Origin: a virus
Lineage: Duplodnaviria > Heunggongvirae > Uroviricota > Caudoviricetes
Strand: one strand, 5' to 3'
Length of the DNA stretch: 8,885 bases
Virus record (IMG/VR): IMGVR_UViG_2609460067_000009
The notes beneath the pieces are model-generated. The model was not told the origin of the DNA. It searched no databases and worked only from the letters and a program-made list of their open reading frames with translations. The stretch's first letter is position 1, and the number at the start of each line of letters is the position of its first letter. Shown piece after piece: positions 819-7,456 of this stretch. The translations under genes and the position numbers were made by a program.

Positions 819-915
819 GATTTAATTCTCCTCTGTTTCCGGCGTGCAGAAGCCCGCGGCGCTGACGTCGGAATAAAAAAGAAAATGTTTTTATTAAATA
901 ATTAACGTGGTGTGT

Positions 916-2922: not shown

Positions 2923-4542
2923 TCAGTTGCCGTTAACAATGCTGATAACACTGCTGCGGGCCGGTGTGGTCAGCGTGGCCATGACTTCATCCAGTGCGGC
3001 TTCCGGTACGCCGTCCGGGTACTGTGCCGTTAACTGGCGGTAATGTTCCGGCGTCCAGGTAAGGCCGTCGGCGCTGAACTTATCGCGCAGGGCTTTCGCG
3101 GCCTCCACATGAGTCATGGGACGTTGTTCAGTGCGCGGCCCGCGTACGTCAGAGGCCTGACCACGCTTCGGCATATAGGCCGGAAGTGTGGTGTCGTCGA
3201 TATGTTTATACGGGTCAAGCCGCCCGCCGAACGGCAGCGCCTTCGCCTTGCGTGCGGCGGCTGCATCTGCGGCGTTGTCTGTACCGGTAACCAGCGCTTC
3301 GGTTTCTTTTGCCGCCATCTGTGCCGGGGTTTCCGGCAGGGCTTTGTAACTTTCGCCAAATACCGCCGCGCCTTCAGCAAAGCCAAACTCGTTCTTTCTG
3401 ACCTCTTCGACCAGGAAGAACGTCTCGTGGCCGTCCTCACCGGTCAGAACCACCTGTGCCACATCGCTGCGCCATGGGTTACGGGTAATCATCAGTTTTT
3501 CACCAACCAGTACGCCCGGTACCGTTGATACGTCAAATTCAGTGCCCCGGAACGAGACACGAAGTTTTGGCGTGACTTTGCGGAGTTCTGGTGCCGCCAC
3601 AGCCAGTTCACGACATACCTCAACGGAAGGCGCTTTTTTCAGCTGCTCAGCAGTAATCTTCAGCCAGATATCCGTGCGGGTTTTACCGTGGCGGCTGTGA
3701 ACAGCCGTGGCGTTAAAGTGGCTGCGCCATTTCGCGGCCAGCGCGTTGAGTTCTTCCAGACTGTGAACCGGCCGGAACTTCAGACCCGGCTCCAGCTTGC
3801 GTTCGATAATGTCACGCGCCTTTTCCACCTGTCCGGTGGCGCGGGCGTTATGCGGCTTGTGCGCTATCAGGTCGATGCCCAGTGAGCGGCACATGTTTTT
3901 CGTCATACCCGCGGTGTTTGCCGAGCCGGGGTCGAGATAGAGTATTTTCGGCACGCCGTGCAGCACGTCTGCGCCGCCACGCTCCTGCATGGCGTTGATA
4001 AGCACAGAACACAGGTTCTCACCTGATTCCGCGCCCGTCACATACTCAACGTAAATCCAGCCGCTGGCATGGTCGGTAATCTCGTAACTCCACACGCGGT
4101 CACTGGCGATACGGGCAAGGTTAGCGGGCTTGTTCTTGTAGAACTTCGCGCTGTCCATCACCTGCAGCCCTTTATGTCCATTGCTCAGGTAGTAAAGCGT
4201 GCAGAGTGAGGCGTCAATCTGCCAGACATGATTGGGATGCAGACTGGCCACTTCGGTATGTGGTGCAGGGGCATCCAGTTGTTCCGGGTGCAGGCCATAG
4301 TTACGCAGAGCACGGCTGATGGCATCTTCAGACAACGGGAAAAACTCACTGGTGGTTTCATCTGTTCTGCCTGCGGTGATAAAGCCGTTAGCCCGCAGGG
4401 TTTCCACTGCATCTGCGATGGAATAGAGACGCTTACCGTTCTTGCGGGTGGCCTCACGCAGTGTGGCAGATATCAGCGCGGCTTCGTCGCGGGTCAGGGC
4501 GCTGCGCCCGGCATCGGCGCGTTTTTTGCGTTTATCAGTCAC
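2923..4542 (-). CDS. DDE transposase (transposable-phage A protein, retroviral-integrase-like DD35E core)
   Basis: Large ORF immediately upstream of the AAA+ ATPase. Candidate catalytic residues in VWQIDAS or ITDHASGW, LYLDPGSANT and GQVEKA, with the last two about 36 residues apart. Start is ambiguous: GTG at 4542 overlaps the upstream stop as GTGACTGA and is favoured; the ORF-track start at 4647 is a TTG that would overlap the upstream gene by about 110 nt. Confidence 0.85.
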   Translation of the reverse strand: MTDKRKKRADAGRSALTRDEAALISATLREATRKNGKRLYSIADAVETLRANGFITAGRTDETTSEFFPLSEDAISRALRNYGLHPEQLDAPAPHTEVASLHPNHVWQIDASLCTLYYLSNGHKGLQVMDSAKFYKNKPANLARIASDRVWSYEITDHASGWIYVEYVTGAESGENLCSVLINAMQERGGADVLHGVPKILYLDPGSANTAGMTKNMCRSLGIDLIAHKPHNARATGQVEKARDIIERKLEPGLKFRPVHSLEELNALAAKWRSHFNATAVHSRHGKTRTDIWLKITAEQLKKAPSVEVCRELAVAAPELRKVTPKLRVSFRGTEFDVSTVPGVLVGEKLMITRNPWRSDVAQVVLTGEDGHETFFLVEEVRKNEFGFAEGAAVFGESYKALPETPAQMAAKETEALVTGTDNAADAAAARKAKALPFGGRLDPYKHIDDTTLPAYMPKRGQASDVRGPRTEQRPMTHVEAAKALRDKFSADGLTWTPEHYRQLTAQYPDGVPEAALDEVMATLTTPARSSVISIVNGN

Positions 4543-5401
4543 AGATGCCTGTTGGCTCGTCCGGCAGGTCAAATGTGGAGCGCAGGCTACGCGCTGTGCT
4601 TTCCAGTTGACAGACCAGGCCTGCCATGAAGTCTCTGGGGGTATCAATCATGTTTTCAGCACAATATGCGCACAGCGTCTCAAAAGCGCTGGACAGTCGG
4701 ACGGCGATAGCAGATTCCGCCTCAACCGCTAATGCTGTTACTTCCGCCCGCAGCTTCTTAACCTCCTCATCAGGCTCAGGCGGCTGAATACGGGATTTCT
4801 TCTCCAGTCTGGTGGAGAGTGAATCTATTTTTTCATTTTTGTCGGCGAGTACGCGCTGTTGTGCTGCGTTGGTTTCGCGCGCTTCGCGCAGGGCCTGACG
4901 CAATTCACGTACTGACATGCGATCAACGTCGTCAAGCGTCAGGCCGGCAACTGTGCCGCCGTCGGCCAATTCATCAAGTTCTTCATTATCCAGAACCATC
5001 AGGTCGTACAGTTTGGCTTTCCCCAAAACGCTCAACGTTGAGCGTTTTGTTGGCTCATCACCTTCTCCCAAAAACTTCATACTGGCTTGCATCATGCGGC
5101 GAGCAACTTGTGGTGCAAGTCCGAGTTCATTTTCTAAAATGTTTGTAAAATCACCGTGTGGCTCATTTTCTTTTAAGATGATCAGCCGCTTACCCGCTTC
5201 CAGCATAGATTCAGCACTCTGCGCCATATAAAAACGTGCTTCGTGAACAATGCGATCACGTTCATAAGGCAGTCCATCACCAAACTGCTGCATAATTTCC
5301 ATGCGATGCTGTGTCATAGCGTTCAAATTGACATTGATGTTATCTGACAGCGGAACCTCAACATTCAGTTCAGTGTTAACGGGTGATTTGGTGCGTCCCA
5401 T
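4535..5401 (-). CDS. hypothetical coiled-coil protein (early operon, between the regulators and the transposase)
   Basis: 288-aa ORF with an AAGGAG ribosome-binding site that overlaps the stop of the upstream gene. The central region is rich in charged heptad-like sequence (RELRQALREARETNAAQQRVLADKNEKIDSLSTRLEKK). No catalytic motif recognised. Confidence 0.6.
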   Translation of the reverse strand: MGRTKSPVNTELNVEVPLSDNINVNLNAMTQHRMEIMQQFGDGLPYERDRIVHEARFYMAQSAESMLEAGKRLIILKENEPHGDFTNILENELGLAPQVARRMMQASMKFLGEGDEPTKRSTLSVLGKAKLYDLMVLDNEELDELADGGTVAGLTLDDVDRMSVRELRQALREARETNAAQQRVLADKNEKIDSLSTRLEKKSRIQPPEPDEEVKKLRAEVTALAVEAESAIAVRLSSAFETLCAYCAENMIDTPRDFMAGLVCQLESTARSLRSTFDLPDEPTGICD

Positions 5402-5411
5402 TGATTACTCC

Positions 5412-5720
5412 TTACAAACGACTACCTGAAATAACTCGTTGGTTGATTTCGTTAATACGATCCTGTGCACGCGCCATCTCGTGACTGTGAGCCATGGCGA
5501 TCTGTAGTAACTGGATTCCCGGTGCGAAACGTCCGTTCTCTAATTTCATGGCCAGTCCCTCTTCAATAAGGGTATTAAGTGCTCGATTGATATTCGCCGG
5601 GGACTCCCCCAGGGCTGATGCCAGTTCACCGTTAGAAACACCGTTCAGAGCATGACCGCGTAGAGCTTTGAGTACACGTAGGATGCGGGTCCCAGAACTG
5701 GAAATATTTACTTTACTCAT
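5412..5720 (-). CDS. winged-helix/HTH DNA-binding protein
   Basis: About 102 aa from the ATG at 5720. HTH-like segment (VSNGELASALGESPANINRALNTLIEEGL). The longer ORF-track start at 5783 would overlap the upstream gene and is rejected. Confidence 0.6.
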   Translation of the reverse strand: MSKVNISSSGTRILRVLKALRGHALNGVSNGELASALGESPANINRALNTLIEEGLAMKLENGRFAPGIQLLQIAMAHSHEMARAQDRINEINQRVISGSRL

Positions 5721-5772
5721 GTCACATTTCCATTTTTGCAATATGTGATAACCTGTTGCATATGTGGAAAAT
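5721..5772. promoter_or_regulatory. intergenic region with direct repeats TTGCA(A)TATGTG (putative regulator-binding sites)
   Basis: TTGCAATATGTG at 5736-5747 and TTGCATATGTG at 5757-5767. The 10-mer ATATGTGATA at 5741-5750 recurs exactly at 5998-6007 in the divergent control region. Confidence 0.35.
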
Positions 5773-5961
5773 TTATGCCGCATTTGACGTGGGTTTTAAT
5801 CCCAGTTTTACGGCAATTTCATGGGCTTTGCCGTAACGAGCTTTGGTCTGTCCATTGAGAACACGATAGACCTCATTGCGGCTGTAGCCGTGTTCTTCGG
5901 CCCAGCGGGTAAACGTGATACCACGCTGACGGAAGAGATTTTTAACTTGTTCGGAAGTCAT
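5773..5961 (-). CDS. small HTH DNA-binding protein at the Ner/Cro-equivalent position (Ner-like)
   Basis: 62-aa ORF, first gene of the minus-strand early operon, divergent from the repressor-like gene. Excellent AAGGAGA ribosome-binding site 5 nt upstream. Pattern RG-x-T-F-x-x-W-A-x-E-x-G...IA-x-x-LG resembles the Ner/Nlp family as I recall it. Confidence 0.55.
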   Translation of the reverse strand: MTSEQVKNLFRQRGITFTRWAEEHGYSRNEVYRVLNGQTKARYGKAHEIAVKLGLKPTSNAA

Positions 5962-6047
5962 TGTTGTCTCCTTTGTTGATGCAATGATGTTTGTTTTATA
6001 TGTGATAGATTATGAGAACTATTGTTCTCATTGTCAATGAGGTTTAT
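5962..6047. promoter_or_regulatory. divergent early/repressor control region (overlapping promoters and operator)
   Basis: AT-rich spacer between divergently oriented genes. Contains candidate -35/-10 elements (TTGATG ... TATATG), the ATATGTGATA motif and a perfect 8-4-8 inverted repeat. Confidence 0.45.
6012..6031. repeat. perfect inverted repeat ATGAGAAC-TATT-GTTCTCAT (candidate operator)
   Basis: 8-bp arms are exact reverse complements with a 4-bp spacer. It sits between the divergent promoters and the likely repressor start. Confidence 0.6.
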
Positions 6048-6473
6048 GTGAATTTTGATTCTCTTTGCGCGTCGCGGTTCAAAGCTGAGCGTTCGCGGTT
6101 ATCACTCAAGCAGGCTGAAGTAGCAGCCCTTTGTGGCGTTTCAAGAGAAATGTGGGGGAAATATGAACGAGGGGTTGCTGTTCCCGGAGGTGAGTTACTT
6201 GCAGCCTTTGCAAGAATTGGGGCCAATGTACAGTTCATTCTTACCGGGGAGTCATCAGGTATAACTTTATCACGTGATGAAATGGAGTTACTGCAGCACT
6301 ACCGGCAGGCACCATTACAGGTCAAAGGTTCAGTTTTGTCGGCCTTGACTACTGGCTCCTCCAGAGAACGGGCGGAACAGGTTATTCATGGAGATGTTCT
6401 GGGGAATGTTATCAAAGGTAACGTAACCATAGGAACAGGTGGAATAATGAACAAAAATACCAAGAGAAGATGA
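6048..6473 (+). CDS. XRE-family HTH transcriptional repressor (c-like lysogeny repressor candidate)
   Basis: HTH_XRE-like segment (LSLKQAEVAALCGVSREMWGKYERG). Divergent from the early operon. Start placed at GTG 6048, which has a GAGG ribosome-binding site 5 nt upstream. The in-frame ATG at 6012 lacks a ribosome-binding site and lies inside the palindrome. No S24 peptidase domain is evident. Confidence 0.65.
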   Translation: MNFDSLCASRFKAERSRLSLKQAEVAALCGVSREMWGKYERGVAVPGGELLAAFARIGANVQFILTGESSGITLSRDEMELLQHYRQAPLQVKGSVLSALTTGSSRERAEQVIHGDVLGNVIKGNVTIGTGGIMNKNTKRR

Positions 6474-7456
6474 GTAAAGAGAAGCAAACAGTTAACGGGG
6501 ATGTGGGTAACGTTGTCAGCGGTGATGTTACCATTCATAACTATTCTGCTGACATACTTCCTTCGGCCCAGCAACCAATTTCGTTGCTGCAAAAACGCGA
6601 TTTACACAGATTGATGGATGAATTGGTTGATCTGGGGGAAAGTAAGCGCGAGCTATGGATGACGATCCACACGAAACTTAATACCAAAACAGTTAATGAA
6701 ATGACTGCGGCTGATTATCATGGTGCGGTTGAGATCCTTCAGAGATATGCACAACAGATCCAGAATATGAAGGACTGTAATCTTCTGGTCAGCAAAATAA
6801 TGGCGCTTACTGACCCTGGGTATCGTCTTGACCGTGACAGATACTGTCTGAAGCATTTCGGTACAACCCATCTTAAAGGCCTAGACAAAGAGCAGTTGCA
6901 GGCTGTGTTTGGTTATTTTGATGATCTGCTGAATATTCGTGATGAGAGTAAAACTCTATCACCTCCATCGGAAAGCGGTGCAAAATCAGTCGCAACTGTA
7001 CCAACCAGAAGCCGGAAGCCTCATGTAGTAGTGTTGGGGGGAGTGTTAGTTCTTGTAGCAATATTTTTCGTGGGAATGATTGTGTTCGCTGGTAAATGGG
7101 GAAATGCCAAAGCAGTAGCTTCTACTGAAACCAGCGTTTTTAACATTAAAACCAACGATAAAATAATAGAAGATTCCATCCCCGCACTGCGCAGCATGTT
7201 TCCAGGGTTAAATAAGTACTCAGATGATTTCCATTCGGTTTCAAGCTACAAGCAAAAAACGGGCTGGCATACCCTTAAATTTACTGTATCAGCAAAGGCA
7301 TCCGTCCCCGAAAATTATAGTGTTAAGGGCAAGGTTTGTTACATTAACATAAGCCCTGATGGTAGTTATGCTCGGGTTTTGACTGCTCCATGTCGTTCAC
7401 TGCTACTTGATCAGCAAAGCACTCCTGACAGTAAATACCGTTTTATTCTTAAATAG
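6470..7456 (+). CDS. single-pass membrane protein, unknown function (cargo gene 1 of repressor operon)
   Basis: 328-aa ORF whose ATG overlaps the repressor stop (ATGA at 6470-6473). One strongly hydrophobic segment (VVVLGGVLVLVAIFFVGMIVFAG) is preceded by basic residues (TRSRKPH). About 185 aa lie before it and about 120 aa after it, with two Cys in the latter. AT-rich codon usage unlike the transposition genes. Confidence 0.65.
   Translation: MSKEKQTVNGDVGNVVSGDVTIHNYSADILPSAQQPISLLQKRDLHRLMDELVDLGESKRELWMTIHTKLNTKTVNEMTAADYHGAVEILQRYAQQIQNMKDCNLLVSKIMALTDPGYRLDRDRYCLKHFGTTHLKGLDKEQLQAVFGYFDDLLNIRDESKTLSPPSESGAKSVATVPTRSRKPHVVVLGGVLVLVAIFFVGMIVFAGKWGNAKAVASTETSVFNIKTNDKIIEDSIPALRSMFPGLNKYSDDFHSVSSYKQKTGWHTLKFTVSAKASVPENYSVKGKVCYINISPDGSYARVLTAPCRSLLLDQQSTPDSKYRFILK

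What the first reader, a model, noticed from the sequence alone, without database searches (positions are those of the whole stretch)
6012..6031. Perfect 8-4-8 palindrome at the repressor gene start: candidate operator
ATGAGAAC-TATT-GTTCTCAT has exactly complementary 8-bp arms. It lies between the divergent early and repressor genes, immediately upstream of the favoured GTG start of the repressor-like gene. That is the expected position for a dimeric HTH repressor to block early transcription and autoregulate. It matches no operator consensus I recognise, including the LexA box.
Basis: seen in the sequence. Interest (0 to 1): 0.45.

Follow-up and report, generated by a model that had tools for sequence, protein, structure and literature searches.

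The report
Phage repressor operator inside early promoter
The 20-bp palindrome is very probably the single DNA site where this E. coli transposable prophage's repressor sits to shut off the early (lytic) promoter: a textbook kind of switch, but one not previously mapped for this phage group in the literature I could search.

Summary
The palindrome ATGAGAAC-TATT-GTTCTCAT at 6012-6031 is real and unique in the roughly 37-kb prophage. The window is a BcepMu/B3-like transposable prophage of E. coli.

The palindrome fills the 17-bp spacer, plus 3 bp of the -10, of the best sigma-70 promoter in the window. That promoter is TTGACA-17-CATAAT on the minus strand and reads into the Ner-like first early gene.

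Comparative evidence is strong:
- Heteroimmune E. coli relatives share DNA up to position ~6011-6013, then each carries its own palindrome at the same place.
- 70 of 80 loci encoding relatives of the repressor, from gamma- and beta-proteobacteria, have the same layout of -10, dyad, -35 and repressor start.
- Dyad sequence follows the repressor's recognition helix, not Ner.
- A held-out prediction (SRETW helix gives GATC arms) was met.

The repressor's DNA-binding domain matches the P22 C2 repressor (rmsd 1.5 Å).

The operator reading is supported. Repression of the early promoter is well supported. Autoregulation rests only on geometry, and binding was not tested.

The kind is known and the member is new, so interest is modest. 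The repressor gene most likely starts at GTG 6048, not at the ATG inside the palindrome.

One side observation may be more novel: the repressor's C-terminal tail mimics the N-terminus of the downstream protein.

The parts
6012..6031 (.). Operator: the 8-4-8 palindrome ATGAGAAC-TATT-GTTCTCAT. The family consensus is ATG-n-GAAC-N4-GTTCTC-nn.
   Evidence: sequence and uniqueness. (conservation footprint). (replaced in heteroimmune relatives, covaries with the recognition helix). (19 of 34 exact occurrences in viral contigs lie 16-28 nt from a repressor homologue).
6032..6037 (-). -35 hexamer TTGACA of the predicted early promoter Pe, directly abutting the right arm of the operator.
   Evidence: 11 of 12 match, 17-nt spacer. 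(best promoter match in the whole window). (same arrangement in 70 of 80 related loci).
6009..6014 (-). -10 hexamer CATAAT of Pe. Its first three bases are the outer ATG of the left operator arm. The predicted transcription start is near 6001-6003 on the minus strand.
   Evidence: The start position is inferred from the usual spacing between the -10 and +1.
5773..5961 (-). Ner-like 62-aa HTH protein, the first gene of the early (transposition) operon driven by Pe.
   Evidence: PHROG 925. (70% DNA identity to the phage B3 ORF17 region; 'Ner-like antirepressor' in phage Bise). (synteny).
6048..6473 (+). XRE (P22 C2-like) immunity repressor of 141 aa, starting at GTG 6048. The predicted recognition helix is residues 33-41, REMWGKYER.
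   Evidence: HTH_31 and HTH_3. (P22 C2, E = 9e-5). (model; Foldseek to 3jxb, rmsd 1.5 Å). (start codon).
6039..6042 (+). GAGG Shine-Dalgarno for the GTG 6048 start.
   Evidence: An equivalent GG-rich element sits before the start in the homologous loci.
5998..6007 (.). ATATGTGATA, a motif conserved across heteroimmune relatives. It lies just downstream of the Pe -10, over the predicted start site, and is repeated at 5741-5750. It is a candidate site for a backbone-encoded regulator (Ner-like or IclR-like) and is not part of the repressor operator.
   Evidence: direct repeat D4. (conservation in relatives with different repressors).

Best explanation
The palindrome is the single operator of the prophage's immunity repressor, a small P22 C2/434-type HTH protein encoded from GTG 6048.

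**Proposed mechanism**
- A repressor dimer binds the two GAGAAC half-sites.
- The site fills the 17-bp spacer of the strong early promoter Pe (-35 at 6037-6032, -10 at 6014-6009, minus strand) and overlaps 3 bp of its -10.
- A bound repressor therefore excludes RNA polymerase. This keeps the Ner-like gene, the transposase genes and the rest of the early operon silent in the lysogen.
- The sequence of the site, together with the repressor's recognition helix, defines the immunity type.

**Shown here**
- The sequence, its position in a predicted promoter, and its uniqueness.
- Family-wide conservation of the architecture.
- Covariation with the recognition helix.
- The structural class of the protein.

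**Inferred**
- Actual binding, the dimeric state, the Pe start site, and negative autoregulation.
- Autoregulation follows from geometry. Only 16 bp separate the operator from the start codon, so any repressor promoter must overlap the operator or lie upstream of it.
For: **Position**
- Pe is an 11 of 12 match and the best promoter match in the window, with the dyad in its spacer.

**Mosaic boundary**
- About 450 E. coli prophages share the Ner-like gene and the intergenic DNA only up to roughly 6013.
- Each immunity type then carries its own dyad at the same position: EC958 and PhiKM TGCTCATAATTATGAGCA, VTB96929 TATCCCA-AAAA-TGGGATA, AR0349 TATGCACA-AA-TGTGTATA.

**Family-wide layout**
- 70 of 80 loci have a minus-strand promoter matching at least 9 of 12 next to the repressor start.
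- 57 of those 70 have a dyad of at least 6 of 7 in the spacer, against 10% in shuffles.
- 31 of 70 have a perfect dyad, against 0.5% in shuffles.
- The dyad centre is fixed to within 1 bp relative to the promoter hexamers in 45 of 51 distinct operators.

**Specificity**
- Recognition helices reading VSRE[M/I]WG[K/R]YERG go with ATGAGAAC..GTTCTC in Escherichia, Pectobacterium, Brenneria, Serratia, Lonsdalea, Pseudomonas, Azonexus and Methylocaldum. The spacer and flanks vary freely.
- Symmetric double changes occur in L012 (GCGAAC/GTTCGC) and L010 (GAGATC/GATCTC).
- Mantel correlation of operator with helix is r = 0.50 (p = 2e-4). For control DNA it is 0.18.

**Held-out prediction**
- Five further SRETW loci (three distinct repressor proteins), on a different phage backbone, all carry ATGAGATC-TATA-G[A/G]TCTC.
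- An SREMW repressor carries GAAC.

**Occurrence in viral contigs**
- 19 of 34 exact occurrences of the palindrome lie 16-28 nt from a repressor homologue of 47-100% identity.
- One more of the 34 sits at a contig edge with the same promoter flanks.

**Not the Ner-like protein**
- EC958 and CD306 have an identical Ner but different dyads.

**Protein class**
- The domain matches the P22 C2 N-terminal domain bound to its operator, with rmsd 1.5 Å over 64 residues.
- Phage B3 ORF18, annotated as P22 c2-like and 36% identical, has the same layout.

**Published support**
- In the B3-family phage Fc02, RNA-seq places pE in the short gap between ner and the repressor gene, switched on when the repressor is inactivated (PMC9936078).
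Against: - There are no binding or transcription data for this phage. Pe and its start site are consensus predictions.
- There is only one site, unlike the cooperative tripartite operators of lambda, P22 and 434. How tight, bistable repression is achieved is therefore unexplained.
- No credible rightward repressor promoter was found, so autoregulation is unproven.
- The outer ATG of the left arm is also constrained by the -10 hexamer. The outer AT of the right arm is less conserved. The contacted site may therefore be 16 bp rather than 20.
- The Mantel signal is partly phylogenetic. Among pairs whose proteins are otherwise very divergent, the linear correlation vanishes (r = -0.02).
Confidence: 0.85

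Rival explanations
1. The palindrome is the binding site of the Ner-like protein, or of the IclR-type HTH protein encoded next to it, rather than of the XRE repressor.
For: - Both are small HTH proteins encoded next to the site.
- In phage Mu, Ner binds between the divergent promoters (general knowledge).
Against: - Ner and the IclR-like protein are conserved across heteroimmune prophages, at about 90% DNA identity up to 6013. The palindrome is completely replaced in those prophages.
- EC958 and CD306 share an identical Ner but have different dyads.
- The same dyad occurs with repressor homologues on a backbone that lacks Ner.
- A separate backbone-conserved motif, ATATGTGATA, is the better candidate for those proteins.
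Confidence: 0.03
2. The palindrome acts mainly as an RNA hairpin in the leader of the repressor mRNA, affecting stability or translation, and not as a protein-binding DNA site.
For: - If transcribed rightward it folds into an 8-bp stem. The 59-nt leader folds at -14.1 kcal/mol with z = -2.8.
- In the related phage Fc02, the repressor is transcribed in lysogens from a distal promoter, pC1. Its transcript would read through the equivalent site (PMC9936078).
Against: - The arm sequence, not merely the pairing, is conserved among repressors with the same recognition helix, and it changes when the helix changes.
- Mismatches in the dyads are not enriched for G·U-compatible pairs: 9 of 36 against a null of 17%.
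- The dyad is locked in register with the promoter hexamers of the opposite strand.
- There is no Rfam match.
- A hairpin could still form as a by-product.
Confidence: 0.05
3. The palindrome is a chance dyad, or its conservation reflects coding sequence because ATG 6012 is the true start (MRTIVLIV..., as annotated by PGAP in IAI39).
For: - PGAP calls a 153-aa protein from ATG 6012 in IAI39.
- Some database homologues carry the MRT.VLIV extension.
- About 1.5 such palindromes are expected per window by chance.
Against: - The distance from the dyad to the downstream start is 35, 36 or 37 nt in different relatives, so the reading frame from the ATG is not kept.
- Most homologues begin at MNFDS, which corresponds to GTG 6048.
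- There is no Shine-Dalgarno before 6012, but there is a GAGG before 6048.
- PGAP itself uses the 6048 start in strain 510016, where A6012G removes the ATG.
- The chance of such a dyad inside the gap is about 1%, and it is conserved across genera.
Confidence: 0.02

Closest known systems
Phage P22 C2 repressor and its 18-bp operators (and the related 434 cI/Cro with 14-bp operators)
   Same: - The five-helix HTH_3 DNA-binding domain is the best match by sequence and by fold.
- The operator is dyad-symmetric, with two conserved half-sites around a variable, AT-rich central 4 bp.
- The operator overlaps the core of the lytic promoter.
- Immunity type is set by the pairing of recognition helix and half-site.
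   Different: - There is a single operator instead of three adjacent, cooperatively bound sites.
- The site is 20 bp rather than 18 or 14 bp.
- There is no S24 peptidase or RecA-cleavable C-terminal domain. Instead there are two short helices and a low-confidence tail.
- The host element is a transposable phage.
Phage Mu c repressor, Ner and the O1-O3 operators with Pe and Pc
   Same: - The gene layout and logic match: the repressor gene is divergent from ner, and ner is followed by transposase A, the B-like ATPase, Gam and Mor.
- The repressor blocks the early promoter.
   Different: - Mu c is not an XRE protein, and it binds many repeats spread over three operators (general knowledge).
- Here the repressor is a P22 C2-like protein with one palindromic site.
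- The transposase matches only the rve core domain in Pfam.
Immunity region of Pseudomonas phages B3 and Fc02 (Beetrevirus), and of BcepMu-like phages
   Same: - The repressor is homologous: B3 ORF18 is 36% identical.
- The Ner-like gene is homologous.
- The intergenic gap is short, and the equivalent dyad GGTGCCA-AATA-TTGCACC abuts TGTCAA.
- Published RNA-seq places pE in that gap and describes pE and pC2 as overlapping (PMC9936078).
   Different: - No operator has been defined for these phages in the papers I could search.
- The half-site sequence and the recognition helix differ, so the phages are heteroimmune.
- A distal pC1 promoter, as described for Fc02, was not identified in this window.
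Controller (C) proteins of restriction-modification systems (for example C.BclI, C.Csp231I) and their C-boxes
   Same: They are small XRE dimers that bind palindromic boxes overlapping their target promoter. They appear among the fold matches.
   Different: - C proteins usually bind two adjacent boxes and both activate and repress their own operon.
- The biological context is different.
- Sequence similarity is weak (4yba, E = 0.043).

Membership tests
P22 C2 / 434-type (XRE, HTH_3) phage repressor with its operator | Five-helix HTH_3-type DNA-binding domain | tested here: met
   - Pfam HTH_31 scores 30.7 bits (cut-off 27) and HTH_3 scores 23.2 (cut-off 23).
- phmmer to the P22 C2 N-terminal domain gives E = 9e-5.
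- In the AlphaFold model, residues 3-66 have pLDDT of about 90.
- Foldseek to 3jxb gives rmsd 1.5 Å and TM 0.82.
P22 C2 / 434-type (XRE, HTH_3) phage repressor with its operator | Dyad-symmetric operator with conserved half-sites around a few central bases that are not sequence-conserved | tested here: met
   - The dyad is a perfect 8-4-8.
- The arms carry 1.5-1.7 bits per position, against 1.07 in the spacer and 0.7 in the flanks, across 15 loci.
P22 C2 / 434-type (XRE, HTH_3) phage repressor with its operator | Operator overlaps the core of the lytic or early promoter | tested here: met
   - The dyad fills the spacer of an 11 of 12 promoter.
- The same holds in 57 of the 70 related loci that have such a promoter.
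- The promoter is predicted, not mapped.
P22 C2 / 434-type (XRE, HTH_3) phage repressor with its operator | Three adjacent operators with cooperative binding (OR1-OR3) | tested here: not met
   - Only one site with up to 3 mismatches exists in the window and in the 46 kb of IAI39 examined.
- Weak core matches in ner and in the transposase gene are also present in heteroimmune relatives.
P22 C2 / 434-type (XRE, HTH_3) phage repressor with its operator | C-terminal S24 (LexA-like) self-cleavage domain for RecA-dependent induction | tested here: not met
   - The protein is 141 aa with no Peptidase_S24 hit.
- The C-terminal part is two helices plus a low-confidence tail.
P22 C2 / 434-type (XRE, HTH_3) phage repressor with its operator | Specific binding of the repressor dimer to the operator | not testable with these tools
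   This needs EMSA or footprinting. It is supported only indirectly, by covariation of recognition helix and half-site.
Phage Mu-type immunity (c repressor with O1-O3) | Repressor of the Mu c type, binding multiple repeats in three operators | tested here: not met
   - The repressor is an XRE/P22 C2-like protein.
- There is a single palindromic site.
Phage Mu-type immunity (c repressor with O1-O3) | Repressor gene divergent from ner, followed by the transposition genes | tested here: met
   The order is Ner-like, IclR-HTH, DUF3102, rve transposase, AAA ATPase, Gam, then Mor further on.
BcepMu / B3-like transposable phage immunity region | Homology of the repressor and the Ner-like gene, and shared synteny, with B3 and BcepMu-like phages | tested here: met
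   - B3 ORF18 is 36% identical, E = 1e-15.
- The ner region of B3 matches at 70% DNA identity.
- PhiKM, classified as Bcepmuvirus, is 83% identical over ner and the IclR-like gene.
LexA (SOS) box | CTGT-N8-ACAG consensus | tested here: not met
   Read directly from the sequence at 6012-6031.

The most novel reading that the evidence does not exclude
The operator may be one piece of a portable three-part immunity cassette. The parts would be a dyad locked in the spacer of the early promoter, a small P22 C2-like repressor, and a co-oriented downstream membrane protein.

The N-terminus of that downstream protein copies the repressor's C-terminal tail. This holds in 31 of 52 loci, the motif differs between lineages, and it matches within each locus.

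If that mimicry is functional, this widespread family of one-operator switches would be controlled by a partner-protein or decoy mechanism that has not been described. Candidate roles are tail-to-tail association, competition for a protease or partner, or membrane sequestration. This would replace RecA-mediated cleavage or cooperative multi-operator binding.
Probability: 0.2. Interest if true: 0.65.

Novelty: new member of a known kind. Interest (0 to 1): 0.3.

Why it matters
- **Where immunity is exerted.** It pins down the repression site in BcepMu/B3-like transposable prophages. These are common in pathogenic E. coli: about 600 of 5,426 complete genomes carry the backbone and 127 carry this immunity type.
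- **Annotation.** It corrects the repressor start codon used in many RefSeq annotations.
- **A usable rule.** The operator is the dyad in the 17-bp spacer of the promoter that abuts the repressor start. Its sequence can be read off from the recognition helix, for example Met/Ile35 with GAAC and Thr35 with GATC.
- **Applications.** The rule can sort prophages into immunity groups, predict superinfection immunity, and supply orthogonal repressor-operator pairs for synthetic promoters.

The mechanism itself is textbook, so the conceptual gain is modest.

Tried and rejected
**Secondary operators**
- TTGAGAAC at 5855-5862 and GTTCT at 5892-5896 lie inside ner. The first is also present in heteroimmune EC958 and absent from the K. 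oxytoca and Pectobacterium relatives that have the same operator type. It is therefore a coding coincidence.
- CAGAAC-ACAG-GTTCTC at 4005-4020, in the transposase gene, has one mismatch to the 12-nt core. It is also present in heteroimmune PhiKM, so it was rejected.

**Repressor promoter**
- No rightward match of at least 9 of 12 exists between 5400 and 6047.
- The TG-n-TAGATT extended -10 at 6003-6011 is not conserved across the family.
- The promoter remains unresolved.

**Other tests**
- Known RNA family: none.
- RNA-hairpin selection: no excess of G·U-compatible mismatches.
- LexA box: no match.

**Literature**
- I searched for a defined operator in BcepMu-like and B3-like phages and found none.
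- The B3 genome paper could not be opened.

**Mantel test at large divergence**
- It is uninformative there because Hamming distances saturate.

**Downstream gene**
- Pfam gives no family for it. Only PHROGs of unknown function match.

Full report
**1. What the window is**

The window is part of a transposable prophage of E. coli. Positions 5400-6500 are 100% identical to IAI39, CE10 and about 100 other complete genomes.

Gene content:
- Minus strand: Gam (916-1446), an AAA/ExeA-like ATPase (1746-2951), an rve-core transposase (2923-4647), DUF3102 (4535-5401), a small IclR-type HTH protein (5412-5720) and a 62-aa Ner-like HTH protein (5773-5961).
- Plus strand: an XRE repressor (ending at 6473), followed by proteins of unknown function.

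The nearest named phage is Escherichia phage PhiKM, classified as Bcepmuvirus. Pseudomonas phage B3 shares the Ner-like gene. In IAI39 the roughly 37-kb element is inserted in the lom gene of a lambdoid prophage.

**2. The observation**

The palindrome ATGAGAAC-TATT-GTTCTCAT is at 6012-6031, exactly as reported.

Perfect dyads with 8-nt arms are not rare over a whole window. Three independent ones are present, against 1.5 expected. One inside the 86-bp gap between the two start codons arises in only about 1% of shuffles.

The site is unique, allowing up to 3 mismatches, in the window and in the 46 kb of IAI39 that spans the prophage.

**3. Position relative to signals**

The only strong sigma-70-like promoter in the window lies on the minus strand. 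It has TTGACA at 6037-6032, a 17-nt spacer and CATAAT at 6014-6009, an 11 of 12 match. It reads into the Ner-like gene and the transposition genes, so it is the early promoter Pe.

The palindrome occupies the whole spacer plus the first three bases of the -10. A protein bound there would exclude RNA polymerase.

On the other side, the palindrome ends 7 nt before a GAGG Shine-Dalgarno and 16 nt before GTG 6048.

**4. Start of the repressor gene**

PGAP calls the repressor from ATG 6012, inside the palindrome, in IAI39. Several lines point to GTG 6048 instead:
- Homologues begin at MNFDS, which corresponds to GTG 6048.
- The distance from palindrome to start is 35, 36 or 37 nt in different relatives, so the upstream frame is not kept.
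- Heteroimmune repressors start at the equivalent position.
- PGAP itself uses 6048 in strain 510016, where A6012G removes the ATG.

**5. Heteroimmune relatives**

About 450 E. coli genomes carry a prophage whose Ner-like gene and intergenic DNA are roughly 90% identical to the window only up to about 6013. Similarity then stops.

Aligned, each immunity type has its own dyad at exactly the same place, between a conserved TAGATTAT and a (T)GTCAA-like hexamer:

| Relative | Dyad |
|---|---|
| EC958, PhiKM | TGCTCATAATTATGAGCA |
| VTB96929 | TATCCCA-AAAA-TGGGATA |
| AR0349 | TATGCACA-AA-TGTGTATA |
| CD306 | imperfect dyad |

Their repressors are only 26-29% identical to the window's.

EC958 and CD306 encode the identical Ner protein but have different repressors and different dyads. 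The dyad therefore belongs to the repressor, not to Ner or the IclR-like protein.

**6. The wider family**

A scan of one genome per species with a profile of the repressor returned 80 loci from gamma- and beta-proteobacteria. Results:
- 70 of 80 loci have a minus-strand promoter matching at least 9 of 12, almost always with a 17-nt spacer, right next to the repressor start.
- 57 of those 70 have a dyad of at least 6 of 7 in the spacer, against 10% of shuffles.
- 31 of 70 have a perfect dyad, against 0.5% of shuffles.

The dyad centre falls within 1 bp of a fixed position relative to the hexamers in 45 of 51 distinct operators.

Phage B3 shows the same layout: GGTGCCA-AATA-TTGCACC followed by TGTCAA, upstream of ORF18. 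ORF18 is annotated as similar to P22 c2 and is 36% identical to the window's repressor.

**7. Specificity**

Dyad sequence follows the recognition helix.

| Recognition helix | Dyad |
|---|---|
| VSRE[M/I]WG[K/R]YERG | ATGAGAAC-N4-GTTCTC |
| [VI][KQ]RETWSRYE | TGTGATC..GATCACA |
| VKK.AQL.YEK | GGTA(C/T)TC..GA(G/A)TACC |
| TTKKSQIDYEK | GGTAACTA-AA-TAGTTACC |

The first group is found in Escherichia, Pectobacterium, Brenneria, Serratia, Lonsdalea, Pseudomonas, Azonexus and Methylocaldum. Within it:
- The arms carry 1.66 and 1.54 bits per position, against 1.07 for the spacer and about 0.7 for the flanks.
- Position 4 of the left arm and the outer two bases of the right arm are the least conserved.
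- The invariant outer ATG of the left arm is also part of the -10.
- Symmetric double changes occur in L012 (GCGAAC/GTTCGC) and L010 (GAGATC/GATCTC).

A Mantel test gives r = 0.50 (p = 2e-4) for operator against helix. It gives 0.35 against the rest of the protein and 0.18 for neighbouring control DNA. Shared ancestry contributes to this signal, and it vanishes among the most divergent pairs.

As a held-out test, I predicted that further repressors with SRETW would have GATC arms. Five further loci from Klebsiella, E. coli and Citrobacter (three distinct repressor proteins) sit on a different phage backbone, with DUF4761 and Flk_N neighbours. All carry ATGAGATC-TATA-G[A/G]TCTC. A K. oxytoca SREMW repressor carries ATGTGAAC-TATA-GTTATCAT.

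In the viral-contig collection, 19 of 34 exact occurrences of the palindrome lie 16-28 nt from a repressor homologue of 47-100% identity. One more sits at a contig edge with the same promoter flanks. The remaining 14 lack the promoter flanks and look like background.

**8. The protein**

- The N-terminal 66 residues are a confident five-helix HTH (pLDDT about 90).
- Helix 33-41 (REMWGKYER) is the predicted recognition helix.
- Residues 76-101 form two further helices.
- The last 30 or so residues are of low confidence.
- The best matches by sequence and by fold are the P22 C2 N-terminal domain, including its operator complexes (E = 9e-5; rmsd 1.5 Å over 64 residues), followed by 434 repressor.
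- There is no S24 peptidase domain.
- Residue 35, which is Met or Ile with GAAC and Thr with GATC, is the third residue of the recognition helix. That it contacts the base is an inference.

**9. Mechanism**

Best supported: a repressor dimer on 6012-6031 occludes Pe and silences the early, transposition operon. The dyad together with the recognition helix defines the immunity type.

Published RNA-seq on the B3-family phage Fc02 shows the following (PMC9936078):
- pE lies in the short gap between ner and the repressor gene.
- pE fires when a temperature-sensitive repressor is inactivated.
- The repressor is made in lysogens from a distal promoter, pC1, that runs antisense through ner.
- The authors describe pE and pC2 as overlapping.

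No operator is defined there or in the other papers I could search.

Autoregulation is plausible on geometry alone. With only 16 bp between the operator and the start codon, every repressor promoter must overlap the operator or lie upstream of it. I could not find a credible rightward promoter, however.

**10. Rivals**

- A site for the Ner-like or IclR-like protein is contradicted by the mosaic pattern (section 5).
- An RNA hairpin would form if the site is transcribed. Three things argue for a DNA-level protein site: sequence-specific arm conservation, no excess of G·U-compatible mismatches (9 of 36), and register with the promoter on the opposite strand. Rfam has nothing here.
- Chance, or coding constraint from ATG 6012, is excluded by sections 2 and 4.
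- Candidate secondary sites in ner and in the transposase gene are also present in heteroimmune relatives, so they were dropped.

**11. Comparison and novelty**

It works like a P22 C2/434-type repressor-operator pair and meets that family's tests for DNA-binding fold, dyad operator and promoter overlap. It fails two others: there is a single operator rather than three, and there is no RecA-cleavable domain.

It has the gene layout of Mu immunity but not Mu's type of repressor or operators.

It is best filed as a new member of a known kind. It is the apparently unmapped operator of BcepMu/B3-like transposable phages and of a wider family of immunity modules with the same layout.

Interest is modest for the mechanism. 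It is somewhat higher for the family-wide, predictive pairing of recognition helix and operator.

**12. Seen in passing**

The repressor's C-terminal tail resembles the N-terminus of the protein encoded immediately downstream. This is true in the window, in phage B3 and in 31 of 52 testable loci. The motif differs between lineages but matches within each locus.

Homologues with an unrelated HTH carry the window's tail, so the tail is a separately exchangeable module. This is unexplained and may bear on how the single-operator switch is flipped.

Other items are listed under Noticed in passing.

Noticed in passing
window 6360-6473 (repressor C-terminal tail) and 6470-6550 (N-terminus of the 328-aa downstream ORF, 6470-7456); also L087 (phage B3 ORF18 and ORF20), L088, L089, L091, L093 and many of L007-L086: The repressor's C-terminal tail (EQVIHGDVLGNVIKGNVTIG) resembles the N-terminus of the next gene's product (KQTVNGDVGNVVSGDVTIHNYS). 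The same holds in 31 of 52 related loci, with scores above the 99th percentile of shuffles. The motif differs by lineage (for example GNRVAGRD[YF]NE in B3, Klebsiella and Citrobacter) but matches within each locus. Homologues with a different HTH carry the same tail. The downstream proteins are membrane-anchored or of unknown function (PHROG 10002 and 5825; Flk_N in some loci). This may be a partner, decoy or degron motif controlling the repressor.
   Followed up: partly
window 5741-5751 and 5998-6008: ATATGTGATA(A/G) occurs twice. One copy is in the gap between ner and the IclR-like gene. The other is immediately downstream of the Pe -10, over the predicted start site. Both copies are conserved in relatives that have different repressors and operators. 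This makes the motif a candidate site for a backbone regulator, either the Ner-like or the IclR-like protein.
   Followed up: partly
window 6012 versus 6048: RefSeq annotation of the repressor start is inconsistent. IAI39 uses ATG 6012 (153 aa). Strain 510016, where A6012G also weakens the Pe -10 to CACAAT, uses GTG 6048 (141 aa). Homology supports 6048.
   Followed up: yes
window 5024-5049: A perfect 26-bp palindrome, CAAAACGCTCAACGTTGAGCGTTTTG, lies inside the DUF3102 gene. Among the loci fetched, it is found only in the IAI39-type prophage. Its function is unknown.
   Followed up: partly
window 872-895: An AT-rich perfect dyad, AATAAAAA-GAAAATGT-TTTTTATT, lies just downstream of the Gam gene on the minus strand. 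It may be a terminator-like or regulatory element.
   Followed up: no
L001 and L097 (E. coli IAI39, about 2,002,012-2,038,894): The transposable prophage is inserted within the lom (Ail/Lom) gene of a resident lambdoid prophage, splitting it into two annotated fragments.
   Followed up: partly
window about 4487-4700, compared with L001: The window is not collinear with IAI39 around the junction of DUF3102 and the transposase gene. The coordinate offset changes by about 209 bp, and the DUF3102 ORF is 288 aa here against 304 aa in IAI39. The window therefore comes from a slightly different variant of the prophage.
   Followed up: no
L003-L006 (EC958-type prophages), just beyond the repressor gene: The heteroimmune E. 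coli relatives carry a DNA adenine methylase next to their shorter (about 118-aa) repressor. The window instead has the 328-aa and 196-aa proteins of unknown function. The whole block to the right of the operator is therefore exchanged with the immunity type.
   Followed up: no
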